A stretch of 64,000 nt of DNA from Bacilli bacterium (GTDB lineage Bacteria > Bacillota_I > Bacilli_A > RFN20 > CAG-826). The notes under the pieces were generated by a model. That model was not told the DNA's origin and did not search any database. It saw nothing but the letters and a program-made list of their open reading frames with translations. The stretch spans positions 564,478 to 628,477 of the forward strand of contig JAFSOD010000004.1 in assembly GCA_017447165.1 (NCBI GenBank), in the 5' to 3' direction. Made by a program: the position numbers and the translations under genes. Shown here one piece after another: positions 24,681-40,484 of this stretch; positions within the stretch are counted from its first letter, which is position 1, and each line of letters starts with the position of its first letter.

Positions 24681-24818
24681 AAAAAACAAACCTAAAAGTG
24701 AACAAGAAGGGAAATAGAAATCCTTCTTTTTTCACCTATGGTTTGTTTTTGATATCATAATATAATTAAATAGACTATTTTTAAAATGCGACATCCAATA
24801 TGATTAAGGAGATTGTTT

Positions 24819-25445
24819 ATGTATAGTTATCTTTTAAACAAAGAATTAAGGAATGAATTAAGAATGTATTGCGAGGAGAAGATTTTTTTATTGCAAAAAG
24901 AAGTAAGCGAATATTTTACATTTTCATTCAAATTAATTGGGAGTGGTGATAATCGCTTAATGACTATTAACGGAAACAACAAATCGATAGATTTGGATTA
25001 TAACATTGTTATTCAACGCGATAAAAAACAGCTCATTGGGGAACCAGAGCAGATTAAAAAAATATTTATGAGAGCATTCAAAGATGTTTGTGGTCGTGAC
25101 ACCAAAGTGTCTGACTCTACACAAGTGATTACTTGTAAGGTTGGAAAAATTGATGGGTATGATTTCTCGTTTGACATCGCTATATTCGTGGAAGGGAATG
25201 ATGGATTTATTTATAAACTTATTAACGACAAAAAAACAATACCATCGAGATATGTATGGAATAGAATCCCGAGTTCTAAAGATTTCAATTTCAAGTTTTC
25301 ATATTTAAAAAGAAATGGGCATTGGGAAGATATCAAATCCTTATATTTAAAAAAGAAAAATTTGTATTTAACTAGAGGCTCAGATAAAACGTCTTTTTCA
25401 ATTTTAATTGAAACCGTGAATGAAATTATGCAAAAGATGGAATAG
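24819..25445 (+). CDS. Pol-beta-superfamily nucleotidyltransferase (minimal NTase/SMODS-like)
   Basis: hG[GS]-x9-13-DxD motif LIGSGDNRLMTINGNNKSIDLDYNIVI and a third acidic residue in YDFSFDIAIF. An AAGGAG RBS lies 7 nt before the ATG at 24819; the track start at 24813 is a TTG. Confidence 0.5.
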   Translation: MYSYLLNKELRNELRMYCEEKIFLLQKEVSEYFTFSFKLIGSGDNRLMTINGNNKSIDLDYNIVIQRDKKQLIGEPEQIKKIFMRAFKDVCGRDTKVSDSTQVITCKVGKIDGYDFSFDIAIFVEGNDGFIYKLINDKKTIPSRYVWNRIPSSKDFNFKFSYLKRNGHWEDIKSLYLKKKNLYLTRGSDKTSFSILIETVNEIMQKME

Positions 25446-25448
25446 CTT

Positions 25449-26126
25449 ATGATTGATTATGACAAATTCTTTTCAATTATAGATATTGATGAGAGCGAGA
25501 AAGAATCCGCTAAAGAATACATTGCTTTAAGAGGGTTGCAGGAACACATCGATATGGCAACATATTTATCGTCATTTCTTGCAGCAAGGAAACCAACATA
25601 TAAGGAAGTTGCAACAGCATTTAGATACGATAAGAGAATAAGAAGAATTCTATATAAATATATAGGCTTATTAGAAGAGATGTATCGTGCATACATTTGT
25701 AACAATTTTAATAACATCAAGCAATTAGGATTAAAGACCAGCAAGCCATTATTTCAATATATTTCATTGTCTCTATTTAGTTCTCTCGTTAATATAGTGT
25801 GGTCACTAGATGAAAACCATAAAAAAGAATTATTTGAAGGCAAGGCAGTTCTTAAAAAGAATTTAGATGCTCTTGTTACTTTACGAAACGCAATAGGACA
25901 CAATAGGACAATTATCAATTACCGAGATTATAAAGAAGCAACATTAAGCACTGGAGAGGTCGGAAATTCTTTGTTAATTAATATAAAAAATATGTTGGAC
26001 TTTTTGCCGTCGGAAATTAGAAACAAATGCATTAAAGAAACTAATGAAGCAAATAGAAGCGGGACAAAGAAAATAAAAAACCAAGTAGATTGGGCGCTTA
26101 TTTCAATGCTTGTTATTAAGTTATAA
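25449..26126 (+). CDS. Abi_2 (AbiD/AbiF-like)/HEPN-family protein
   Basis: Rx4H HEPN motif in VTLRNAIGHNRTI. Upstream FRYDKRIRRILYKYIGLLEEMYRAYI resembles the Abi_2 family. Starts 4 nt after the NTase gene. Confidence 0.5.
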   Translation: MIDYDKFFSIIDIDESEKESAKEYIALRGLQEHIDMATYLSSFLAARKPTYKEVATAFRYDKRIRRILYKYIGLLEEMYRAYICNNFNNIKQLGLKTSKPLFQYISLSLFSSLVNIVWSLDENHKKELFEGKAVLKKNLDALVTLRNAIGHNRTIINYRDYKEATLSTGEVGNSLLINIKNMLDFLPSEIRNKCIKETNEANRSGTKKIKNQVDWALISMLVIKL

Positions 26127-26202
26127 CGTATAAACAAATTGTTTAAAATGAAAATAGAATTGTTTATAAACTTTTTTGTGGTTTATAATTAAACCAATCA
26201 AT

Positions 26203-27234
26203 ATGCAAAGAAAAAAATATCAAGTATTTACGCCAGAGGCAGTAGTTGAAAAAATGCTGGATCTTTTAGGGTATAAAGGCGAATTAATTATTAATAAAAG
26301 AATTATTGATATTTCCTGTGGAGATGGTGCTTTTTTGGTTTCGGCCGCTGAAAGATTAATTGCTGAATGCAAAAACAAGAATTTGACAACAAAAGAAATC
26401 ATGGAAAAGTGTTCGCAAAACATTTGCGGTATTGAAATTGAAACTGAATATTATAAAAAATGTATTAAACGCCTTAATGAAGTTATTAAAAAGCACTTTA
26501 AAAAGTTATACATTAAATGGAAAAACGTAAATAACGGCGATGGACTTTTACACTCAGAGGATAATTATGATTTTGTTGTTGGCAATCCGCCTTATATTTC
26601 ATATAAAGATATGTCAAGCGAACAAAAAGAGTATCTTAGGAACAACTTTTTAAGTTGCAAGCAATACAGATTTGATTATTCGTTTGCTTTTATCGAAAAA
26701 AGCCTTAACATTTTGTCTGATCAAGGCAAAGGATGCATTATTTCCCCTATTAATATGTATAGGATTAAATCTGGAATTGGAATAAAAGAATTAATCCGTC
26801 CTTATCTTGATGTTATAGTTGATGTTACAGAAGATAACATTTTTCCAAGAGTATTAACGAACCCTGTCATTTCTGTTTTCAGCAAAACAAAAAAAACCAA
26901 TGAAATTGTTTTGTTAAAGCGCGATTTAGCTCCAAGGAAATTGCCAAGGGAAACGTTCGAAAACGACATCAACTTGTTTATAAACGTCGGATCGCGTCGT
27001 TTTGGAGATTATTTTTCGGTTCACAATGGTGTGGCGACTTTGTATAACGAAGCATTTATTGTTAATAGCGATAGTGATCTTGAATCAGAAGTATTAATGA
27101 ATGCTAGAAGTCCGAAGTTTAGCAGATTCAATTTGAATAAGAAAATTATTTTCCCTTATTTGCACTCCAGTGGCACAATAAACAAAATTGATGAAAAAGA
27201 TTTTTTTGAAAAATATCCAAACTGTCCAAATTGA
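26203..27234 (+). CDS. N6-adenine-specific DNA methyltransferase (gamma-class, Eco57I/TaqI-like)
   Basis: Motif I IIDISCGDGAFLVSAAE and motif IV VVGNPPYISYK in gamma order. A TATAAT box sits 13 nt upstream of the ATG at 26203; the track start at 26176 is a TTG. Confidence 0.75.
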   Translation: MQRKKYQVFTPEAVVEKMLDLLGYKGELIINKRIIDISCGDGAFLVSAAERLIAECKNKNLTTKEIMEKCSQNICGIEIETEYYKKCIKRLNEVIKKHFKKLYIKWKNVNNGDGLLHSEDNYDFVVGNPPYISYKDMSSEQKEYLRNNFLSCKQYRFDYSFAFIEKSLNILSDQGKGCIISPINMYRIKSGIGIKELIRPYLDVIVDVTEDNIFPRVLTNPVISVFSKTKKTNEIVLLKRDLAPRKLPRETFENDINLFINVGSRRFGDYFSVHNGVATLYNEAFIVNSDSDLESEVLMNARSPKFSRFNLNKKIIFPYLHSSGTINKIDEKDFFEKYPNCPN

Positions 27235-27604
27235 TCATATTGATTCATCTGAGCCAAAAGACAACACGTTAAAAAATTTGGCACCGGCATGTTTTGATTG
27301 TAATCAAAAGAAAAAAGACATTTGTGACAAACATTCACTTGCTTCTATTATAAATCCATATAATTCTATACATAATGTATTTCAAAGGAATGATGATTAT
27401 AGCATTTGCATAAAAGATGGTTACATAGATAATGAAGATGTTAGGGTGTTTTTTGAAAAACTTAAGCTTGGATCTCAAATTAAAAGAATTGATTATCTTC
27501 TATCGTGTATTCGCTCAATCAAAGATAAACAAGAAAATAGATTTATTAAATCTTGTTTGTCTGATATATATAATTCACTTCTAGACAAAAGAATAATGAT
27601 GTAA
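27191..27604 (+). CDS. HNH-family endonuclease domain protein. Its 5' end overlaps the MTase 3' end in another frame, so it may be a frameshifted C-terminal domain of the MTase
   Basis: QIDHIDSSEPKDNTLKNLAPACFDCNQKKKD is an HNH core (His-...-Asn-...-CxxCN). No RBS was found. A 44-nt frame overlap contains a T7 run (27201..27207). Confidence 0.45.
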   Translation: MKKIFLKNIQTVQIDHIDSSEPKDNTLKNLAPACFDCNQKKKDICDKHSLASIINPYNSIHNVFQRNDDYSICIKDGYIDNEDVRVFFEKLKLGSQIKRIDYLLSCIRSIKDKQENRFIKSCLSDIYNSLLDKRIMM

Positions 27605-27997: not shown

Positions 27998-28936
27998 ATG
28001 ATACCAAACGAATTTAAATATTTTTGTCAAAACGAAATGCATCTACCTTACGCAGACGATTCTTGCGTTACATCAGTTAAGAGCAGTATTTTTAGTTGCC
28101 TTATTCATGATAGCTGTTATTTCAGCAACGACATTAAAAAATCAAATATCATAGCGAATTGTATTTTTATTTTTTTATTGGATCGACCATTCTACAACAG
28201 ATCTGATTATTGGTATTTTTATTATGAAGAAAATAATACACCAGGTAACGGACGCCGCATTAATACATATCAGTTATTTCTTAAATATCCAATAAATGTT
28301 ATAGGCAAAACAGATTTATGCTTAAAACTTATTGGCTTGCACCTTGGAAATATTTCGAAAGACATTTCAAACACTTTTATAGAAAGACATTACCGTATTT
28401 TTTTACCAGAAGATAAACTCACTGGTTATTACACAATGTTAGATTTCTTGGTTCAACGCGGATTAATTTTTAATTATAAGCTTACTGTTGAAGGGTGGAA
28501 AAGATTTGATGAAATAACAAACAAGAACACTTCATCAAATCAATTGTTTATAGCAAGCCAATTTGAAGGATTCGATGAAATAATTGGTGTGGTTAAAGAC
28601 TCTGTTATAGAGTGTGGCTATTCACCAGTTTACATGAAAGATCACCAAACGAATAACTATATAATGCCTGAGATTTTTTCTTTAATAGATAATAGCAAAG
28701 CTGTTATCGGAGAAATATCATCAAATAATAATGGTGTATATTTTGAAATTGGTTATGCAAAAGGCAAAGGAATAGATGTTATTTTGATATGCAAAGCTCA
28801 GCGAGATGATAGCGGAAAATTAATAACTAAAACACATTTTGATGTTTCTCAAATTTCTATTATTTACTATGACGATAAAGAAGATTTAAAGAAAAAACTA
28901 ACGTTTAGAATCGAAAATACAATAAGCAAGAGTTAA
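27998..28936 (+). CDS. hypothetical protein with a C-terminal nucleoside 2-deoxyribosyltransferase-like (SLOG/Rossmann) domain
   Basis: The C-terminus QLFIASQFEGFDEIIGVV...NYIMPEIFSLIDNSKAVIGEISSNNNGVYFEIGYAKGKGIDVILIC resembles the NDT-family core with its catalytic Glu (E[LI]GYA). N-terminal 180 aa unrecognised. Confidence 0.4.
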   Translation: MIPNEFKYFCQNEMHLPYADDSCVTSVKSSIFSCLIHDSCYFSNDIKKSNIIANCIFIFLLDRPFYNRSDYWYFYYEENNTPGNGRRINTYQLFLKYPINVIGKTDLCLKLIGLHLGNISKDISNTFIERHYRIFLPEDKLTGYYTMLDFLVQRGLIFNYKLTVEGWKRFDEITNKNTSSNQLFIASQFEGFDEIIGVVKDSVIECGYSPVYMKDHQTNNYIMPEIFSLIDNSKAVIGEISSNNNGVYFEIGYAKGKGIDVILICKAQRDDSGKLITKTHFDVSQISIIYYDDKEDLKKKLTFRIENTISKS

Positions 28937-29046: not shown

Positions 29047-30450
29047 ATGACACTAAAAGAATTAAGAAAATTAAAGAATCTAACACAGTTAGAAGCATCT
29101 GAGATTACAGGTGTACCACTCCGCTCATATAAGCGTTTAGAAAGTGATGAGAAGTATGTTTCATCACTTAAATATAAACAAGCATATTCTATATTAAAGG
29201 GCCATAGTGGCACTTTTATTGATGATATTAAATTATCATCTAAAACTATTTCTGTTGCGGGTACTGGCTATGTCGGTTTATCTAATGCGATTATCTTATC
29301 GCAACATAATAAAGTATACGCAGTAGATGTAGTTCCTTCTAAAGTTGAACTAATTAACTCTAAGAAATCTCCTATAGTAGATAAAGAGATAGATGAGTAT
29401 TTAGCTACTAAGGAATTAGATTTAGTGGCAACATTAGATGGTGATAAGGCTTATAAAGAATCTGAAATAGTGATTATTGCTACTCCTACTAACTATGATA
29501 GTGTGACTAATAAGTTTGATACCTCTAGCGTAGAATCTGTTATTGAACAAGTTAAAAGAGTGAATCCTAATGCTTGGATCATTGTTAAATCAACAGTGGG
29601 TGTTGGCTTTACTAGATATGTTAGAGAGAAATATAACTATGACAAGATATTATTCTCTCCAGAGTTCTTAAGAGAAGGCAAAGCCTTATATGATAACTTA
29701 TATCCATCTCGTATCGTGGTGGGTGTACCAGAAAAAGTAGAACCTTATTTATCTAAAGCAAAAGAGTTTGCTGCTTTATTAAAACAAGGTGCACTTAAAC
29801 CTAATGTTGATGTGCATATCTTAGGATATACAGAAGCAGAGGCTGTTAAGTTATTCGCTAATACTTATTTAGCGCTTAGAGTCGCATATTTTAATGAATT
29901 AGATACTTTTGCCCAAACCAAAGGTTTAGATACCTTAGATATTATTAAAGGAGTATGTGGAGATCCTAGAATTGGTGATTTCTATAATAATCCATCCTTT
30001 GGGTATGGAGGATATTGCTTACCTAAAGACACTAAAGAGTTAAGAGCGAACTTTGAAGATGTACCAGAAAATCTTATTTCTGCGATCGTGGAATCTAATA
30101 GAACTAGAAAACAATTTATTTGTGATGATGTATTAAGAAAAGCGGGATATAAGAATGATGGTAAAGACGATATTACTGTTGGTATATATAGACTTACCAT
30201 GAAAAGTGGTAGTGATAACTTTAGACAATCCTCTATTCAAGGGGTGATGAAACGCTTACACGCGAAAGGTGTGAGAATAGTTATTTATGAACCAACACTT
30301 AAAGATGAAGAATTCTTTAACTGTAAGGTTATAAAAGACTTTGATAGCTTTAAGTCTATGAGTAAGGTGATTATCGCTAATAGATATGATTCATCTTTAG
30401 ATGATGTTAAAGATAAAGTCTACACAAGAGACTTATTAAGGAGAGATTAA
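29047..30450 (+). CDS. ugd: UDP-glucose 6-dehydrogenase with an in-frame N-terminal XRE-type helix-turn-helix extension
   Basis: [19 protein letters not shown] (NAD-binding) and the catalytic [14 protein letters not shown] motif. The N-terminal 60 aa [31 protein letters not shown] are HTH_XRE-like. The ATG at 29047 is preferred over the track GTG at 29011. A TATAAT box lies 8 nt upstream, suggesting a leaderless mRNA. Confidence 0.75.
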
Positions 30451-30451
30451 C

Positions 30452-31477
30452 ATGAGCAGCAAAAAGGCCTTCGTTATTTTATCTTTTGTTGGGTTTGTTT
30501 CTTTGTGTGGACTTGTTATAGCTGACATTTGCTTACATTTTTTAAATAACATAGATTCGTTGATTATTCGACTTTTAGAGTTGATTTTTGGTTGTTTAAC
30601 ATCCGCATCAATTTCTTTAACGGTATCATTTTCTAATAATATAAAACAAACAGTAAAGTCTAATTCTGGCACAATAACAAATATTACATATAACCATTCG
30701 CCAATATCCGATCTTGGTCTTATGCTTCCAACATGCACTCCGGTCCAATTAAAGAACGAATTAATTAAGGTTGGAAATGACCTTGAAATATTGAAAAAAG
30801 AGAACGTAGAAAATATTGTCAATTTAGTGTATGAAAGAATTAAAGAAAGCGACTCGATTCATCCAATTGACTTGAACTTTGTGTTAAAATACATTGACTG
30901 TGCATCTACTATTTCAGATAAAGATATTCAAAAAATATGGGCTGAATTACTTGTTTCGAAAGTGATCGATGGAGTGACAACATCAAAAAGGCTACTTGAT
31001 ACTATAAAAAATCTATCTTCCTATGAAGCGAAATTGTTTGAAAAGGTTGCCATACTTTGTACACCCGAAGGTGTATTATTTGAAAATTTTAAAGAAGATT
31101 TTTCTTTTGAAGAATTATCTACTTTGACCGAAGCTGGACTCATTAAACCACACGATTTATTGACTGATACATTTCATCTTGCACCCAGAACCAACAAAAC
31201 TGTTCTCGTTAAAAGTGACTCTATTGTTATTTTAGGCTCAAATGATTCTGAAAAAGAAAAAGAACTATCATATTCTTGCTCGATGTTAACCACGGAAGGT
31301 ATTATATTAAAGAAAATATTAAAGCTAAAAATTGATGATAGTAGTATGATAAAACTTGCTTTAGAAATGAAAAAAGTTGCTTCAAGAGAGGGTGTAAAAA
31401 TATCTGCCCACAGCATAAATTTCACAACCCAAAATGGTTTGAATTATAAACTTGAAGATTTGATTGGTAATAAATAA
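30452..31477 (+). CDS. hypothetical protein with N-terminal hydrophobic segments, inserted between ugd and the epimerase
   Basis: N-terminus AFVILSFVGFVSLCGLVIADICLHF...FGCLTSASISLTV followed by a ~250 aa soluble region with no recognised motif. Confidence 0.4.
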   Translation: MSSKKAFVILSFVGFVSLCGLVIADICLHFLNNIDSLIIRLLELIFGCLTSASISLTVSFSNNIKQTVKSNSGTITNITYNHSPISDLGLMLPTCTPVQLKNELIKVGNDLEILKKENVENIVNLVYERIKESDSIHPIDLNFVLKYIDCASTISDKDIQKIWAELLVSKVIDGVTTSKRLLDTIKNLSSYEAKLFEKVAILCTPEGVLFENFKEDFSFEELSTLTEAGLIKPHDLLTDTFHLAPRTNKTVLVKSDSIVILGSNDSEKEKELSYSCSMLTTEGIILKKILKLKIDDSSMIKLALEMKKVASREGVKISAHSINFTTQNGLNYKLEDLIGNK

Positions 31478-32499
31478 TGTATATTTTAGTCACAGGTGCA
31501 GCGGGTTTTATTGGTTCATTCCTAGCCAAGAAATTATTAGAAAGAACTGATCATGAGATTGTTGGGGTTGATAACCTTAATGACTATTATGATGTGTCTT
31601 TAAAAGAAGAAAGATTAAAGATGTTGTCTCCTTTTAAGAACTTTAAGTTCGTTAAAGGCGATATATCAGATAAAGCATTTATCGATAAATTATTTGAGGA
31701 ATATCGTTTTGATATTGTTGTTAATTTAGCGGCGCAAGCAGGGGTGAGATACTCTATCGATCATCCTGATGTTTATATTAATTCCAATATTATTGGATTT
31801 TATAACATATTAGAAGCTTGTAGATATCATATGCCTAAACATTTAGTGTACGCTTCTAGTTCTTCTGTATATGGAGGAAACACTAAAGTTCCATTTAGTA
31901 CAGAAGATAAGGTAGATAATCCAGTTAGTTTATATGCGGCTACTAAGAAATCTAATGAATTATTAGCCCATGCTTATTCTAAGTTATATAACATACCTAC
32001 TACTGGATTAAGATTCTTTACAGTATACGGCCCAATGGGTAGACCTGATATGGCGTATTTCTCATTTACTAATAAACTTATTAAAGGAGAGACTATTGAG
32101 ATCTTTAATTATGGTAACTGTAAAAGAGATTTTACTTATGTAGATGATATTGTGGAAGGCATTATCAAGGTTATGGGTAAAGCACCTTCTAAAAAAGATG
32201 GAGAAGATGGATTACCTATTCCTCCATATAAAATCTATAACATTGGTAATAATAACCCTGAGAACTTATTAGACTTTGTTGAGATATTGTCTGAAGAGTT
32301 AGTAAGAGCAGGAGTATTACCTAAAGATTATGATTTTGAATCTCATAAGAAATTGGTGGCGATGCAAAAAGGTGATGTCCCTATTACTTACGCAGATACA
32401 TCTGATTTAGAAAGAGATTTTGGATATAAACCTTCTACATCTTTAAGAGACGGATTAAGAAGATTCGCTGAGTGGTATTATTCCTATTATATTAAATAG
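31477..32499 (+). CDS. UDP-glucuronate 4-epimerase (NAD-dependent epimerase, Cap1J/WbnF-like)
   Basis: MYILVTGAAGFIGSFLAKKLL...VDNLNDYYDVSLKEERL...YASSSSVYG...YAATKK is the typical GlcA/GalA epimerase subfamily sequence. Confidence 0.8.
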   Translation: MYILVTGAAGFIGSFLAKKLLERTDHEIVGVDNLNDYYDVSLKEERLKMLSPFKNFKFVKGDISDKAFIDKLFEEYRFDIVVNLAAQAGVRYSIDHPDVYINSNIIGFYNILEACRYHMPKHLVYASSSSVYGGNTKVPFSTEDKVDNPVSLYAATKKSNELLAHAYSKLYNIPTTGLRFFTVYGPMGRPDMAYFSFTNKLIKGETIEIFNYGNCKRDFTYVDDIVEGIIKVMGKAPSKKDGEDGLPIPPYKIYNIGNNNPENLLDFVEILSEELVRAGVLPKDYDFESHKKLVAMQKGDVPITYADTSDLERDFGYKPSTSLRDGLRRFAEWYYSYYIK

Positions 32500-32521
32500 C
32501 AATTACTTAAGTTAATTATTT

Positions 32522-32550
32522 GCCCATATTATTTATATGGGCTTTTTTAT
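32522..32550 (+). terminator. rho-independent terminator after the epimerase gene
   Basis: gcccatat-tattta-tatgggc followed by tttttt. Confidence 0.6.
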
Positions 32551-32678
32551 AAATATCAAAAGACTAGTTCTTAATTTAATATTGGTATCTATTTTAAAAT
32601 AACTAATCTATTGACATAAAAGTGATCTATAATTAAAATATATTTGTTCAAAAAACTTGAACTAACGGAGGTGTTACT

Positions 32679-33836
32679 ATGGTTATCTTGGATTTAAAAT
32701 TAAACAATGTTTTAGGTTTTAAAGACATTCATTTCAATTTTACATATCCGAAGAAATTAAGAAAGAATTCTTTGGGAGAAGAGTGCTTAAAAGGAGTCCC
32801 TAATTTCAGATATAAAAAAGTTAATGTCGTTATGGGTAGCAATTCTAATGGAAAATCATCTTTGGGCAAAACTATCTGGGGGCTCTGTTTATTTTTTCGT
32901 AAAAAAGAAAGTAACAATCTTATTAAGTTGATGTCTGATGGTTCTGATTCAATGAATATATCAATTGATTATGTTTGTGCATCAGAAACTCAAAAATATA
33001 TTTTAAACAGAGTGGCTATCAGAGTGAAAAAAGATGAAAATTTAACTACTGGATACAGTATTAAAATGGATTATGATTGTGTTACCCTTAGAGGTGACGA
33101 CACTTACGAAACAGCCTGTAAAAATTTAGTTAGAAAAATTTATAATTTGGATTATTTAGACTGCTTAAATGCAATTTCCCATTCCGACGGATGGTTTATT
33201 GCAATGCCAATTACTGAGACAGGTTTTGATAAATTTGAATTGGAACTTGAAAAGCCAAACAGAGAACTGTTTTCAAATATATTATTTAAAGTTTTGAATA
33301 CACTTGACCCCAATATTCAGTCTTCTACAGTTAGTAACGAAATTGATGATGCATATATTATCAAATTTGATGATGGAAAAAATACCATTGTCAAATCTGG
33401 TGATCGAATAACTGATATTAGATATTTGTCCAGCGGAACAAAATATGGTTTTATAATTGCAACTGTCATTTATTCAATTGGAAAGCAACATAATGGTTTG
33501 TTTTATATTGATGAGCTTTTTTCTTATGTTGATTCTGATATAGAAATCGCAATATTAAATTTAATGATTTCGCTACTTGGGGATTGCGAGCAACTATTTT
33601 TTTCAACACACAACTCTGAAGTTTTATTACTCCCATATCCTTTACATTCGTTTATGTTTTTAGGGAAAGAAAAAGTCGATGATCAAATTAAGATTAAGAC
33701 CATTTGTGCGTCAGATGTTGAAAAGAGAAATAATGTCGTTGTAAAGAATTTATACGATAATGACTATTTCGATATTTCGCCAGATTCTTCCAGAATTTTT
33801 GAGATTGAGGAGTTATTTGATAATGGGGAACAATAA
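32679..33836 (+). CDS. ABC/OLD-family (AAA_15/21-like) ATPase; first gene of a three-gene operon
   Basis: RecF-like N-terminus ILDLKLNNVLGFKDIHFNF...VNVVMGSNSNGKSSLGKTIW (Walker A). C-terminal LFYIDELFSYVD (Walker B/D-loop) and FFSTHNSEVL (H-loop). A GGAGGTG RBS lies 7 nt upstream. Confidence 0.6.
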   Translation: MVILDLKLNNVLGFKDIHFNFTYPKKLRKNSLGEECLKGVPNFRYKKVNVVMGSNSNGKSSLGKTIWGLCLFFRKKESNNLIKLMSDGSDSMNISIDYVCASETQKYILNRVAIRVKKDENLTTGYSIKMDYDCVTLRGDDTYETACKNLVRKIYNLDYLDCLNAISHSDGWFIAMPITETGFDKFELELEKPNRELFSNILFKVLNTLDPNIQSSTVSNEIDDAYIIKFDDGKNTIVKSGDRITDIRYLSSGTKYGFIIATVIYSIGKQHNGLFYIDELFSYVDSDIEIAILNLMISLLGDCEQLFFSTHNSEVLLLPYPLHSFMFLGKEKVDDQIKIKTICASDVEKRNNVVVKNLYDNDYFDISPDSSRIFEIEELFDNGEQ

Positions 33837-34341
33837 TTTAATTCAGTATTTTGTAGAAGGTGAATGTGAGGAAAAATTTATTAATGTTTTCAAAACCGGC
33901 AGCGATGCTTTTTTAAAGGCTGGTAAAGTTGAAGTTTTGAATCCTGTCAATAAGATTATAACCGAGGCTAGAGCGAGAACTATTAAGCAAAATACAACTG
34001 TTGTTCTTGTATATGACATAGACAAAGGAAATATAGATGTTTTGCTTAGCAACATCAAAACACTTAAAAACCACTCTTTAACAAAAATTATTCACATTCA
34101 GTCAGTAATGAATTTTGAAGATGAAATAGTAAGATCAACTAGTATTAACTCTATTGATGAAATGTTTTCCACGAAAGGAGTGGAAAATTTTAAGGAAAAA
34201 TTTATTGGTCATAAGAATATTAAGTCTAAATTGGAAAAAGTAAAATTTGATAATTCTATTTTTTGGTCTAAAGTCTATAGAAATGGCCAATTTAAGGATT
34301 TCGCAATTAAGGGTTCGATAAAAAACATAAGAAAAGAATAA
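33823..34341 (+). CDS. small Toprim-like domain protein (AriB/OLD-C-terminal-like) that overlaps the ATPase gene
   Basis: Conserved Glu in LIQYFVEGECEEKF and a DxD in VVLVYDIDKGNIDVL, spaced as in Toprim. The ATG at 33823 overlaps the ATPase stop by 14 nt. Confidence 0.45.
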   Translation: MGNNNLIQYFVEGECEEKFINVFKTGSDAFLKAGKVEVLNPVNKIITEARARTIKQNTTVVLVYDIDKGNIDVLLSNIKTLKNHSLTKIIHIQSVMNFEDEIVRSTSINSIDEMFSTKGVENFKEKFIGHKNIKSKLEKVKFDNSIFWSKVYRNGQFKDFAIKGSIKNIRKE

Positions 34342-34368
34342 TCAAAGCGCGGAAAGGAGCAAAACAAA

Positions 34369-34977
34369 ATGGAAAGACATAAAGTGTTTATAAGTTATTA
34401 TCATAAAGACCAGTCATATAAGGATTTGATTTGTGATGTTTGGAATTCTAATCAAGAGTTATTTGACGATTATTCTGTAGGGTTTGGAGACATTGATGAC
34501 ACAAACAAATCTGATGAAACAATTCGCAAAATTATTAGAGATGAATATATTGCTGATGCCACTGTCCTTCTTTTGCTATGCGGCCCTGAAACAAAAACCA
34601 GGAAATATATCGATTGGGAATTACATGCCGCCATGTACAATACAGAAAATAATCCAAAAATGGGCATTGTGGTTATTAATTTACCCAATTCTAGGAATGG
34701 TGTTAGAGCGCCAACGGATCGAGAAAAAGAAATAGTTGCTCCAAACAGTAACTGGACTTCGTTTGACACAAGAAAAGAATTCGAAGAAAGATATCCTTCA
34801 GCGCCATCTAGAATTATTGATTCTTTATACAAATGTCATTCAGATATTACTTTTGTGGATTGGAGCACCATAAATAATAATCATTTGTTACTAAAAGAAT
34901 TAATTGACTATGCTTTTAAAAGAAAAGATGAGATTGAATATGATACATCAGCTACATTGAGGAGAAAAAATAGTTAA
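34369..34977 (+). CDS. TIR-like domain protein (ThsB/DUF1863-like)
   Basis: HKVFISYYHKDQSYKDLICDVWNS...ATVLLLLCGPETKTRKYIDWELHAA follows the ThsB-type TIR-like pattern (F[FI]S[FY]H..D; vLIG.eT..s.wV.wEi..A). An AAGGAG RBS is present. Confidence 0.6.
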   Translation: MERHKVFISYYHKDQSYKDLICDVWNSNQELFDDYSVGFGDIDDTNKSDETIRKIIRDEYIADATVLLLLCGPETKTRKYIDWELHAAMYNTENNPKMGIVVINLPNSRNGVRAPTDREKEIVAPNSNWTSFDTRKEFEERYPSAPSRIIDSLYKCHSDITFVDWSTINNNHLLLKELIDYAFKRKDEIEYDTSATLRRKNS

Positions 34978-35234
34978 TCTATATATAATGACGTATTATC
35001 TATACAAACGTAATTTAAATATTTAGTAAAAAATTTAAAAAAAGAAAGCAAATATATAAGTTTATTGTTCCTACGCTTTTGAGGTTTGCTGTACAAAATT
35101 TATAAAACAAATACTTATAGTGCCAGTAGCACTTTTATTGTTAATAAAAAACCAATATAAATGATTACAAATTAACAAAACATAATTAGCATTTTATCTA
35201 ATTATGATATAATTTGTCGCAAGGGGTTAAAATT

Positions 35235-37046
35235 ATGCAAGCATTAATGTTAGCAGCTGGCTTAGGAAAAAGACTAGCCAAATATACAAAAGATAACACC
35301 AAATGTATGGTGGAAGTCGCTGGTCAAAAGTTAATTGATCGCGCGATTACCGCTATTAAAAAAGCAGGTATTAAAAGATTCGTCATTGTTACTGGATATA
35401 AAGGTGACAATTTAAAGAAATATATTTTAGATAATTATGAAGGCCAATTAGACTTTGTTTTTATTGATAACAAAGACTATGCGACCACCAATAATATCTT
35501 CTCTTTCTATTTAGCCAAAGAAGAATTAAAGAAAGATGACGTTATCTTACTAGAAAGCGATATCATCTTTGATGAAGACTTAATTAAAGATGTCTTAGAA
35601 AGCGAAGACAAAGATATTGTTACAGTCGCTAAATATGAATCTTGGATGGATGGAACATGCGTTACTTTAGATGAAAATAACTGCATTAAAAAGTTCATCG
35701 AAAAAGCTAGATTCCTATATGAATTCATCGATAAATATTATAAGACAGTGAACATCTATAAATTCTCTAAAGAATTTGTGAATAACATCTATATCCCATT
35801 CTTAGAGACTTATATGAAGATGTATGGTCTAAATTGTTATTATGAGACTCCACTTAAATATATTTGTAAATTACCAGAGATCTCCTTTAAAGCGTTCACT
35901 ATGGATGATCGACCATGGTATGAAATCGATGATGCGCAAGATTTAGATATCGCGACTGTCTTATTCTCCAATGGAGAAGATAAACTCAAATTAATTGAAA
36001 AGAAGTTTGGTGGCTATTGGAGATTCCCAGGACACTTAGATTTCTGTTATTTAGTGAATCCATATTTCCCACCTAAAGAAATGGTGGCGAAACTCCAATA
36101 TGAACTTCCAACCCTATTAACTCAATATCCTTCGGGATTATCCGTCCAAAATATGAACGCCGGTAGATTATATAATGTTGATGAGAATCATATCTTTGTG
36201 GGGAACGGCGCAGCTGAACTAATTAACGCGCTAGGACATGTCTCTAAAGGTAAGAAAGTCGCTGTCAATTTACCAGCATTTAACGAATATGTGAGATGTT
36301 TCAAAGAATCAGAGATTATTGAGATCGATAACTCTAAATTTGATTATCAGTTAAATTTATCAGCGATTAAATCGGCGATTGATAAAGCGGATATCACTGT
36401 CATCATTTCTCCAGATAACCCTTCTGGATACATGCTCAAAAAAGAAGAAATCGTAGAACTTGCGGAATACTCTAAAGCCAAAGGCCATAAATTAGTGGTG
36501 GATGAATCCTTCGTGGACTTCGCTAGAGACAAAATTAGATTTACTTTATTAGATGACGATTTTATCAATAAATATCCAAATGTCATCGTTGTGAAATCCA
36601 TCTCTAAATCTTATGGAGTGCCTGGCTTAAGACTTGGTTTACTCGCTACAAGTGACACTAAGCTATTAAAAGAGCTCAAACAAGAAATGCAGGTTTGGAA
36701 TATTAATTCCTTTGCGGAATATTATCTTCAAATCTATCAACTCTTTTCTAAGAGCTACGCTGAAGCGTGTGATAAGATCGTGGAAGCTAGAGAAGAATTT
36801 GTTAGCAAACTCAAAGAGTTTAAAGGATTTAAAGTCTATCCTAGTGAGGCCAACTTTGTAATGGTTGATACTGGAAAAGTTAGTTCTCATGAACTCGCTA
36901 TTGAGTTACTTAATAAATACAAACTCATCATTAAAGACTTATCTAGCAAGCATACTTTTGAAGGCAAAAACTTCATTAGACTCGCAGTGAGAAATAAAGA
37001 AGATAACGATTACTTAATTGACTGTTTAAAAGAAACGCTTAAGTAA
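35235..37046 (+). CDS. bifunctional protein: N-terminal sugar/alcohol-phosphate nucleotidyltransferase fused to a class I/II PLP-dependent aminotransferase/decarboxylase (HisC/CobD-like)
   Basis: N-terminus MQALMLAAGLGKRLAKYTKDNTKCMVEVAGQKLIDRAI is the NTP_transferase G-x-G-x-R motif. The C-terminus has DNPSGYMLKKEEIVELAEY...LVVDESFVDF...SISKSYGVPGLRLGLL, with the PLP lysine in SxSK. An AAGGGG RBS precedes the ATG at 35235. Confidence 0.65.
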   Translation: MQALMLAAGLGKRLAKYTKDNTKCMVEVAGQKLIDRAITAIKKAGIKRFVIVTGYKGDNLKKYILDNYEGQLDFVFIDNKDYATTNNIFSFYLAKEELKKDDVILLESDIIFDEDLIKDVLESEDKDIVTVAKYESWMDGTCVTLDENNCIKKFIEKARFLYEFIDKYYKTVNIYKFSKEFVNNIYIPFLETYMKMYGLNCYYETPLKYICKLPEISFKAFTMDDRPWYEIDDAQDLDIATVLFSNGEDKLKLIEKKFGGYWRFPGHLDFCYLVNPYFPPKEMVAKLQYELPTLLTQYPSGLSVQNMNAGRLYNVDENHIFVGNGAAELINALGHVSKGKKVAVNLPAFNEYVRCFKESEIIEIDNSKFDYQLNLSAIKSAIDKADITVIISPDNPSGYMLKKEEIVELAEYSKAKGHKLVVDESFVDFARDKIRFTLLDDDFINKYPNVIVVKSISKSYGVPGLRLGLLATSDTKLLKELKQEMQVWNINSFAEYYLQIYQLFSKSYAEACDKIVEAREEFVSKLKEFKGFKVYPSEANFVMVDTGKVSSHELAIELLNKYKLIIKDLSSKHTFEGKNFIRLAVRNKEDNDYLIDCLKETLK

Positions 37047-40073: not shown

Positions 40074-40484
40074 TTATAACTCCTTTTTAATCTCTTTAGC
40101 AATGGCTGGAAGATTAAGGCCTTCAGAGTTATTCTTCATCTCTAAGATGAATCCTTCTTCAGCTTCGTAGCGAGGAATAACGTGGACATGGAAGTGCATC
40201 ACAGTTTGACCAGCGGCAGGATAGCAGTTAGTTAAGATATTGACTCCTCTAGCCCCTAAGAGTTTAACTTCAACTTGTCCAATTCTTTGAGCGACATCCA
40301 TCACTTTATGCATTTCACTTTGTGGAATGGTTAAGAAATTGTCATAGTGTTTCTTTGAAACCACCAAAGTGTGTCCTTTAGTGACTTGAGAAATGTCTAA
40401 GAAGGCGAGTACATCATCGTCTTCATAGACTTTATGACATGGGATTTCCCCATCAATGATTTTACAAAAGATATCTTTTTCCAT
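40074..40484 (-). CDS. HIT-family (histidine triad) nucleotide hydrolase
   Basis: HFHVHVIPR histidine triad plus the HIT N-terminus IFCKIIDGEIP. Confidence 0.85.
   Translation of the reverse strand: MEKDIFCKIIDGEIPCHKVYEDDDVLAFLDISQVTKGHTLVVSKKHYDNFLTIPQSEMHKVMDVAQRIGQVEVKLLGARGVNILTNCYPAAGQTVMHFHVHVIPRYEAEEGFILEMKNNSEGLNLPAIAKEIKKEL

What the first reader, a model, noticed from the sequence alone, without database searches (positions are those of the whole stretch)
32600..34977. OLD/ABC-type ATPase + mini-Toprim + ThsB-like TIR operon inserted into the housekeeping part of the glycan locus
The epimerase gene ends in a clean terminator (32522..32550). Between it and the next glycan gene sits a compact operon with its own candidate promoter (TTGACA-17-TAAAAT at 32611..32639). 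Gene 1 is a RecF/OLD-like ATPase (Walker A GSNSNGKSSLGK, Walker B FYIDE, H-loop STHN). Gene 2 overlaps it by 14 nt and is a 171-aa Toprim-like protein (VEGE...YDIDKG). Gene 3 is a 202-aa TIR-like protein with the ThsB/DUF1863 pattern (VFISYYHKD...LLCGPETKTRKYIDWELHAA). An ATPase plus split Toprim is reminiscent of PARIS (AriA/AriB) or class-1 OLD. Coupling to a ThsB-like TIR with no ThsA-like partner is unusual and may be an undescribed combination.
Basis: partly seen in the sequence, partly recalled or inferred. Interest (0 to 1): 0.8.

Follow-up and report, generated by a model that had tools for sequence, protein, structure and literature searches.

The report
Split OLD-like pair plus orphan TIR
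The three genes are real, but they are a mobile two-gene ATPase plus small nuclease anti-phage module from an uncatalogued family, followed by a Thoeris-type TIR gene that lacks its usual partner; they are not a conserved three-part system.

Summary
Three tightly packed + strand genes (32679..34977) sit between a terminator and promoter upstream and a weak terminator downstream.

The trio is not conserved.
- Gene 2's family has 742 clusters of about 170-aa proteins.
- In 40 of 42 other sampled lineages, and in two phage genomes, the gene-1 homologue lies directly upstream.
- No other lineage has a TIR. The downstream gene changes even between near-identical pairs.
- The TIR's relatives sit with a 211-236-aa membrane protein or with SIR2-SLOG ThsA. 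Neither is in this window.

Best reading: an autonomous, uncatalogued split OLD/PARIS/AbiL-class module, followed by a separately acquired orphan ThsB that is probably co-transcribed with it.

Modest interest, mainly for the unannotated mini-Toprim family.

The parts
32522..32550 (+). Intrinsic terminator of the upstream epimerase gene; 5' boundary of the unit
   Evidence: 8-bp stem with 4 GC pairs, a 5-nt loop and a T-run
32611..32639 (+). Candidate sigma-70 promoter TTGACA-17-TAAAAT
   Evidence: 11 of 12 matches, the best site in 32300..35400. Function is inferred, not shown.
32679..33836 (+). Gene 1: 385-aa Rad50/SMC-type ABC ATPase (AbiLi/AriA-like), the proposed sensor/regulator subunit
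33823..34341 (+). Gene 2: 172-aa stand-alone mini-Toprim, an OLD-type nuclease core and the proposed effector subunit
34369..34977 (+). Gene 3: 202-aa ThsB-type TIR (DUF1863), orphaned from its family's usual partner
   Evidence: Pfam ThsB_TIR 8e-18 (gathering score 21.2, observed 65.1) and PADLOC ThsB 1.9e-10. E84 in the IDWE motif is at least 95% conserved in 120 homologues. Relatives are paired with a TM protein or with ThsA. Neither partner is in the window.
35119..35141 (+). Weak terminator-like hairpin; possible 3' end of the transcription unit
   Evidence: 5-bp stem with 3 GC pairs and a T-rich tail. Weak evidence.

Best explanation
The locus is two modules placed side by side. Module A (genes 1 and 2) is an autonomous, horizontally mobile two-gene anti-phage cassette of the 'ABC ATPase + separate Toprim nuclease' kind, that is, a split OLD nuclease related to PARIS and AbiL. 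By analogy, the Rad50-like ATPase oligomer holds or gates the 172-aa Toprim subunit. On sensing an infection cue it licenses two-metal cleavage of nucleic acid (DNA as in OLD and GajA, or tRNA as in AriB), which stops the phage or the infected cell. Module B (gene 3) is a ThsB-type TIR captured downstream. It is probably co-transcribed, but it is not a component of module A. It has lost, or never had here, its family's usual partner. It therefore either signals to an effector encoded elsewhere in the genome or is functionally stranded. Shown: domain identities, conserved catalytic residues, strict gene1-gene2 linkage, and absence of TIR linkage. Inferred: defence role, subunit interaction, substrate, and co-transcription.
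For: Pair identity. The gene-2 residue pattern E12/E16, D65xD67, E99xE101, K124 follows the same order as BpOLD E400/E404, D455xD457, T506/E508, K562 (PMC6755086).

Pair linkage: a gene-1 homologue lies immediately upstream in 41 of 43 lineages clustered at 90% identity or more. The same holds in two phage genomes, where the pair is a moron next to the integrase (Acinetobacter Ab105-3phi) or between the portal and terminase genes.

Cassette boundary: L055 and L057, whose gene-2 homologues are at least 90% identical, diverge immediately after the gene-2 stop. L024 and L025 have identical gene 2 but different downstream genes.

Defence-island context: the window carries Abi_2, MTase, HNH and Abi_alpha genes. 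L009 has an AbiL-like AAA_21+RloB pair and a reverse transcriptase. L018 has an AbiH fragment and PDC-S53 (5.8e-289). L034 has a PifA-like KAP NTPase.

TIR independence: no TIR of either type occurs in the 66 other pair-carrying loci. TIR relatives at 76%, 72%, 67% and 42-44% identity sit with a homologous 211-236-aa TM protein. A 55% relative sits with SIR2-SLOG ThsA (PADLOC 7e-141).
Against: Genes 2 and 3 are only 27 nt apart on one strand, with a good RBS, no intervening terminator and no strong internal promoter. The arrangement is fixed in every contig of this species. Physical coupling is therefore real and a functional link cannot be excluded.

Confidence: 0.68

Rival explanations
1. 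The trio is one integrated three-component system peculiar to this lineage. Either the TIR makes a nucleotide signal that switches on the ATPase-Toprim pair (a Thoeris type with an OLD-like effector), or the ATPase sensor controls two effectors, the Toprim nuclease and a TIR NADase.
For: There is a single apparent transcription unit with 14-nt overlap and 27-nt spacing, and no internal terminator. The TIR lacks any known partner in 64 kb. ABC ATPases of this clade are known to team up with varied effectors (PMC11464382). Yirmiya et al. 2025 list 29 putative Thoeris effector types, including an 'ATPase' category.
Against: The TIR is present in 1 of 43 lineages. No TIR occurs in about 30 lineages with at least 600 nt of downstream sequence. 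The gene in the third position is a different, self-sufficient or unrelated gene each time: PDC-S53, a KAP NTPase, a CapD-like enzyme, or TM proteins. The 'ATPase' TIR cluster in that preprint is a different, canonical TIR type. The gene-1/gene-2 proteins here show no lineage-specific extra domain.
Confidence: 0.1
2. Gene 3 is a self-sufficient single-gene TIR defence (an NAD+-depleting effector) that needs neither the pair nor a Thoeris effector.
For: The catalytic Glu and the whole 200-aa architecture, including the C-terminal extension, are highly conserved. Stand-alone TIR proteins exist and were deliberately excluded from the Thoeris census.
Against: In every other context examined (seven: L075, L076-79, L082, L080/81 and three enterobacterial plasmids) a partner gene is adjacent, either the TM protein or ThsA. 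This includes a 5.3-kb plasmid where TIR + TM is the only cargo besides a toxin-antitoxin pair.
Confidence: 0.12
3. Genes 1 and 2 are a housekeeping RecF/RecR-like or Rad50-like DNA repair pair rather than a defence module.
Against: The distribution is patchy and the flanks vary. The pair occupies phage moron positions and defence-island neighbourhoods. The acidic/Lys catalytic set is the OLD type. The best profile matches are defence ATPases: AbiLi, AriA, mad3, PtuA.
Confidence: 0.05

Closest known systems
PARIS (AriA/AriB; 'class 4 OLD')
   Different: AriB is a roughly 35-kDa DUF4435 protein. Gene 2 is 20 kDa and has no DUF4435 or AriB profile match at E <= 1. Gene 1 (385 aa) is smaller than AriA (about 53-55 kDa). 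The trigger and the substrate (tRNA for AriB) are unknown here.
AbiL (AbiLi/AbiLii) of Lactococcus
   Same: This is the best PADLOC hit for gene 1 (AbiLi 3.9e-17). It has the same two-gene layout of an ATPase followed by a Toprim-superfamily protein. RloB was placed in the Toprim superfamily in PMC12065111.
   Different: Gene 2 does not match AbiLii or RloB (PF13707). Only 1 of 133 family members gives a 0.0097 hit, and hhalign against an RloB protein is not significant. PADLOC 2.0 would therefore not call AbiL here.
OLD family nucleases (P2 Old and TsOLD class 1; GajA and BpOLD class 2; retron Eco8 class 3)
   Different: The ATPase and Toprim parts are separate polypeptides. The Toprim plus helical part is compressed to about 170 aa. 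No UvrD-type partner or retron is present in the window. No fused forms appear among the top 150 family representatives.
MADS Mad3/Mad4 and Septu/retron PtuA-type ATPases
   Different: Only 4 of 133 gene-2 relatives graze DUF4276. There are no other MADS genes, no HNH PtuB and no reverse transcriptase in the unit.
Thoeris ThsB
   Same: Gene 3 passes the Pfam ThsB_TIR threshold and has the conserved Glu. A 55% identical relative sits in a classic ThsB-ThsA (SIR2-SLOG) operon.
   Different: No ThsA and no other effector lies adjacent or anywhere in the 64-kb window. The closest relatives pair instead with an unannotated 211-236-aa TM protein.

Membership tests
PARIS | AriA-type ABC ATPase (AAA_15/AAA_21) | tested here: met
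PARIS | AriB: DUF4435 Toprim nuclease of about 35 kDa | tested here: not met
   Gene 2 has no AriB or DUF4435 match at E <= 1. None appears among the top families for 133 relatives. It is 172 aa.
AbiL | AbiLi ATPase | tested here: met
   PADLOC AbiLi PDLC02335 3.9e-17.
AbiL | AbiLii / RloB-like (PF13707) partner | tested here: not met
   Gene 2 gives no hit. Only 1 of 133 relatives hits RloB, at 0.0097. hhalign against an RloB protein gives E 0.38.
OLD family (classes 1-3) | ABC ATPase and Toprim in one polypeptide | tested here: not met
   They are separate ORFs overlapping by 14 nt. All top 150 family representatives are 77-212 aa.
OLD family (classes 1-3) | Toprim Glu, DxD, extra acidic residues and a catalytic Lys in OLD order | tested here: met
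   E12, E16, D65, D67, E99, E101 and K124 are invariant or at least 90% conserved in 133 sequences. They follow the order of BpOLD E400, E404, D455, D457, T506/E508 and K562. This rests on sequence order and predicted secondary structure only. No 3-D superposition was done.
OLD class 2 / Gabija | Adjacent UvrD/PcrA-type helicase (GajB) | tested here: not met
   There is none in the window. The L018 relative has an SF1 helicase downstream, but it is PADLOC PDC-S53 (5.8e-289) and matches GajB only at 0.0026.
Toprim fold | Four-stranded parallel sheet with Glu after beta-1 and DxD after beta-3 | tested here: inconclusive
Thoeris | ThsB TIR protein with the catalytic Glu | tested here: met
   PF08937 65.1 bits against a cut-off of 21.2. 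E84 is conserved.
Thoeris | Adjacent signal-activated effector (ThsA SIR2-SLOG, Macro-TM, or another Ths effector) | tested here: not met
   tblastn and HMM searches with ThsA and with the TM partner find nothing in the window. PADLOC's only Ths hit is a generic HIT protein 5 kb away on the other strand. The rest of the genome was not searchable.
Menshen (NsnABC) | NsnA with ParB-DUF262 plus NsnC with an inPIN domain and a nuclease | tested here: not met
   Gene 1 gives only a weak NsnB hit (2.5e-5). No NsnA- or NsnC-like gene is present. Definitions are from PMC12065111.

The most novel reading that the evidence does not exclude
In this Bacilli lineage an orphan ThsB TIR has been wired into a split-OLD module to form a hybrid system. 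One possibility is that a TIR-made nucleotide signal gates the ATPase-Toprim nuclease. The other is that the ABC ATPase sensor drives both a nuclease and a TIR NADase. Either would be a Thoeris/OLD chimera not described so far. Separately and more safely, the gene1-gene2 pair would be the founding example of an uncatalogued 'mini-Toprim' class of split OLD defence systems, present in hundreds of gut and rumen Bacillota lineages and in phages.
Probability: 0.1. Interest if true: 0.75.

Novelty: new variant of a known kind. Interest (0 to 1): 0.35.

Why it matters
The proposed new three-gene system is most likely a chance neighbour arrangement, so it should not be catalogued as a system.

The useful result is the two-gene core. 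It is a strictly linked pair of a roughly 380-aa ABC ATPase and a roughly 170-aa Toprim protein. It has no Pfam or PADLOC model for the nuclease subunit, 742 representative clusters, and carriage by phages as a moron. It looks like the most compact split form of the OLD/PARIS/AbiL design among those compared here. That would make it a convenient minimal model for how ABC ATPases gate Toprim nucleases. It would also be a missing entry for defence-finder tools in gut and rumen Bacillota and Mollicutes-like genomes.

A side result is that the ThsB subfamily of gene 3 is consistently paired with an unannotated 211-236-aa membrane protein, from Bacilli MAGs to 141 enterobacterial plasmids. This is a candidate Thoeris-like effector worth testing.

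Tried and rejected
- Direct profile assignment of gene 2 failed. Pfam, PADLOC and NCBIfam gave nothing meaningful (HobA 0.024, HEC-06 2.8e-4, an SDR model 0.006).
- hhalign of the gene-2 family against a single RloB protein was not significant.
- A profile of 133 gene-2 relatives against PDB sequences gave only noise.
- Foldseek against PDB gave no significant match. The afdb50 library was unavailable.
- phmmer of genes 1 and 3 against PDB gave noise.
- A search for insertion scars, flanking repeats and RNA elements around the unit found only short chance repeats and no Rfam match.
- The Menshen, Gabija and MADS assignments were considered and rejected because the required partner genes are missing.
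- A remnant of the TIR's usual partner downstream of gene 3 (34978..35213) was looked for and not found.
- An IMG/VR scan with near-family peptide patterns found nothing, and the broader alignment had no searchable block.
- The HIT-family gene at 40077..40484 hits PADLOC 'ThsC' (4.8e-13). It was judged a generic HIT/Hint protein (Pfam HIT 8e-28) on the opposite strand, beyond four unrelated genes.

Full report
**1. What is in the sequence**

Three + strand ORFs lie at 32679..33836 (385 aa), 33823..34341 (172 aa, 14-nt overlap with the first) and 34369..34977 (202 aa, 27-nt gap). Each has a Shine-Dalgarno sequence: GGAGGTG, GAGGAG and GGAAAGGAG. Upstream, the epimerase gene ends in a hairpin plus T-run at 32522..32550. 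The best sigma-70-like site of the region (TTGACA-17-TAAAAT, 11 of 12 matches) is at 32611..32639. No terminator-like site separates genes 2 and 3. A weak one follows at 35119. GC content (0.28-0.33) does not set the unit apart from its flanks. The only correction is that gene 2 is 172 aa.

The window matches contigs of an uncultured 'Bacilli bacterium', up to 722 kb long. The trio is identical on all eight fetched contigs.

**2. Gene 1**

Gene 1 matches Pfam AAA_21 (1.7e-9), with weaker SMC_N and AAA_15 hits. In PADLOC the best model is AbiLi (3.9e-17), followed by AriA (1.5e-10, full model length), mad3, HEC-02A, NsnB and PtuA.

**3. Gene 2**

No library assigns gene 2 to a family. Its family is nevertheless large. 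A profile search of 1.84 billion representatives found 742 clusters at E <= 1e-3 and 439 at E <= 1e-10. The top 150 are all short, stand-alone proteins of 77-212 aa, mostly 165-180 aa.

Across 133 diverse members the conserved positions are Y9, V11, E12, G13, E16, G34, N40, D65, D67, N77, E99, E101 and K124. The model (pLDDT 90.3) places E12 after strand 1, D65xD67 after strand 3, E99/E101 at the start of the helix after strand 4, and K124 in a later helix.

This is the order described for the class 2 OLD catalytic core. There E400 and E404, D455xD457, and T506/E508 bind two metals, and K562 is the catalytic lysine (PMC6755086).

I read gene 2 as a minimal OLD-type Toprim nuclease. The fold evidence alone is moderate; the residue pattern makes the case.

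**4. The pair is the conserved unit**

I fetched 66 loci from other lineages that carry a gene-2 homologue. Clustered at 90% identity or more, they form 42 lineages besides the window's own. A gene-1 homologue lies immediately upstream in 40 of them. The two exceptions have truncated gene-2 matches.

Hosts are Bacilli, Acholeplasmatales, Anaeroplasmataceae, Erysipelotrichaceae, Clostridia MAGs and a Butyrivibrio isolate.

Two phage records carry the pair alone. In Acinetobacter prophage Ab105-3phi it sits beside the integrase. In gut phage NatCom_17901 it lies between the portal and terminase genes on the opposite strand. The upstream proteins are gene-1 homologues (1e-57 and 3e-27).

Neighbours are often defence genes:
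- an AbiL-like AAA_21+RloB pair, a reverse transcriptase and another AAA_21 gene in L009;
- an AbiH fragment in L018;
- a Panacea-domain antitoxin in L014;
- HNH_5 in L044.

This pattern is typical of a mobile defence cassette, but I did not test enrichment statistically.

**5. The third position is not conserved**

A tblastn search with gene 3, a 120-sequence ThsB HMM and two canonical TIR queries found no TIR in any of the 66 other loci. About 30 lineages have at least 600 nt of downstream sequence. In five of them a same-strand ORF of at least 100 aa starts within 60 nt, and each is different:
- a 911-aa SF1 helicase that is the single-gene PADLOC candidate PDC-S53 (5.8e-289);
- a PifA-like KAP NTPase;
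- a CapD-like polysaccharide enzyme;
- two unrelated membrane proteins.

L055 and L057 have gene-2 homologues at least 90% identical, yet their sequences diverge immediately after the stop codon. L024 and L025 encode the identical gene-2 protein but are followed by different genes. The cassette therefore ends at gene 2.

**6. Gene 3 and its own family**

Gene 3 passes the Pfam ThsB_TIR threshold (65.1 bits against 21.2) and hits PADLOC ThsB models. It has more than 850 full-length homologues of about 200-210 aa. Conservation runs through the C-terminal half, and E84 of the IDWE motif is conserved. From my own recollection, not from a paper read here, this position corresponds to the catalytic Glu of B. 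cereus ThsB.

The contexts of its relatives are as follows.
- The 76% and 72% identical relatives lie in ThsB / 211-218-aa single-TM protein / canonical TIR operons (L082, L075).
- The 67% relative follows a homologous 214-aa TM protein (L076-79).
- A 55% relative precedes a SIR2-SLOG ThsA (PADLOC 7e-141), a classic type I Thoeris arrangement (L080/81).
- On 141 enterobacterial plasmids a 42-44% identical homologue occurs. In all three plasmids inspected it faces a convergent 236-aa protein of the same TM family (blastp 4e-8; HMM 4e-56 to 9e-62). One is a 5.3-kb Col plasmid where this pair is essentially the only cargo besides a toxin-antitoxin pair.

Neither the TM partner nor ThsA has any match in the 64-kb window. 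Gene 3 is thus an orphan by the standards of its own family.

**7. Literature check**

PARIS, AbiL and MADS3-4 are grouped as ABC ATPase + Toprim systems, and OLD classes 1-4 are defined by gene context (PMC11464382; PMC10568477). RloB and DUF4276 were recently placed in the Toprim superfamily (PMC12065111). The December 2025 census of TIR signalling systems lists 29 putative effector types. Its main text mentions no Toprim, OLD or ABC effector. An 'ATPase' category in its Table S1 belongs to a different, canonical TIR cluster. A DUF1863-type TIR resembling gene 3's relatives is listed there under 'DUF6650 - Type VI'. I found no description of the gene-2 family or of the trio.

**8. Interpretation**

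The most likely picture (about 0.68) has two parts. Genes 1 and 2 form an autonomous split-OLD defence module that works like PARIS or OLD: ATPase-gated, two-metal Toprim cleavage with an abortive or direct outcome. Gene 3 is a separately acquired ThsB sharing the transcript. It acts with an effector elsewhere in the genome or is stranded.

Rivals:
- a true lineage-specific three-part hybrid (about 0.10);
- gene 3 as a self-sufficient TIR effector (about 0.12);
- a housekeeping repair pair (about 0.05).

The pair is not a member of PARIS, AbiL or classical OLD, because the defining second-subunit or fusion features were tested and not met. It plausibly works like them.

**9. Limits**

No experiment exists for this family. 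Toprim fold scores are modest. Only about 6% of gene-2 clusters were examined in context. The rest of the genome could not be searched for a Thoeris effector.

Noticed in passing
window 27998..28936 (+): A 312-aa protein with no family above threshold. Its C-terminal region (about 180-280) gives sub-threshold hits to Nuc_deoxyrib_tr (2.5e-4), DUF4062 (8e-4) and PADLOC 'Effector TIR' (1.6e-5). This suggests a TIR/NDT/SLOG-like Rossmannoid domain 5.4 kb upstream of the ThsB gene. It could be another defence gene or, speculatively, a nucleotide-signal sensor.
   Followed up: partly
window 30452..31477 (+): A DUF2806/Abi_alpha-like gene (1.5e-16 / 6.7e-6) is wedged between the UDP-glucose dehydrogenase and epimerase genes. 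Its start lies 1 nt after the previous stop, and its own stop overlaps the next start. It is a defence-like gene translationally embedded in the glycan operon. In strain L004 it is split into 239 + 64 aa.
   Followed up: partly
window 24813..27604 (+); compare L001 and L002: Upstream lies an Abi_2/HEPN-like gene, a 352-aa MmeI/Eco57I-type methylase fragment and a small HNH gene. In strain L002 the same site instead holds a 467-aa methylase, a 727-aa HATPase_c protein and two small genes. This is a strain-variable defence hotspot inside the glycan locus.
   Followed up: no
window 29047..30450 (+): The UDP-glucose 6-dehydrogenase has an N-terminal extension of about 60 aa that reads like an XRE-type helix-turn-helix ([32 protein letters not shown]). 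This is an unusual fusion for this enzyme. It was judged by eye only.
   Followed up: no
window 40077..40484 (-): A 136-aa HIT-family protein hits PADLOC model 'ThsC2|ThsC HIT family' (4.8e-13). It is most likely a generic Hint-like housekeeping gene (Pfam HIT 8e-28), on the opposite strand and four genes away from the TIR.
   Followed up: partly
L075 5001..6981; L082 6001..7981; L076 4367..5615; L085-L087 (plasmids): The gene-3 subfamily of ThsB TIRs is recurrently paired with an unannotated 211-236-aa membrane protein that has no Pfam or PADLOC model. The pair is operonic in Bacilli MAGs, often with a second, canonical TIR, and convergent on 141 enterobacterial plasmids, including a 5.3-kb Col plasmid. 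It is a candidate Thoeris-like two-gene system with a TM effector.
   Followed up: partly
L014-16 and L071 (UDP-Glc dehydrogenase), L021 (Bac_transf, pyruvyl transferase, deacetylase), L032 (CapD-like), window: The ATPase + mini-Toprim pair repeatedly lands inside or beside polysaccharide-synthesis loci in unrelated lineages. Surface-glycan loci may be preferred integration or variation hotspots in these small-genome Bacilli.
   Followed up: no
L009 1..9240: A dense island holds an AAA_21+RloB (AbiL-like) pair, a 661-aa reverse transcriptase, the gene1/gene2-type pair, an IS66 remnant, and a further AAA_21 gene with a 251-aa partner. That is three ABC-ATPase two-gene modules side by side.
   Followed up: no
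L083 2237..4004 (Acinetobacter phage Ab105-3phi); L084 2405..4004 (phage NatCom_17901): The pair occurs as a moron in phage genomes, annotated only as hypothetical proteins. In one it lies next to the integrase. In the other it lies between the portal and terminase genes on the opposite strand.
   Followed up: yes
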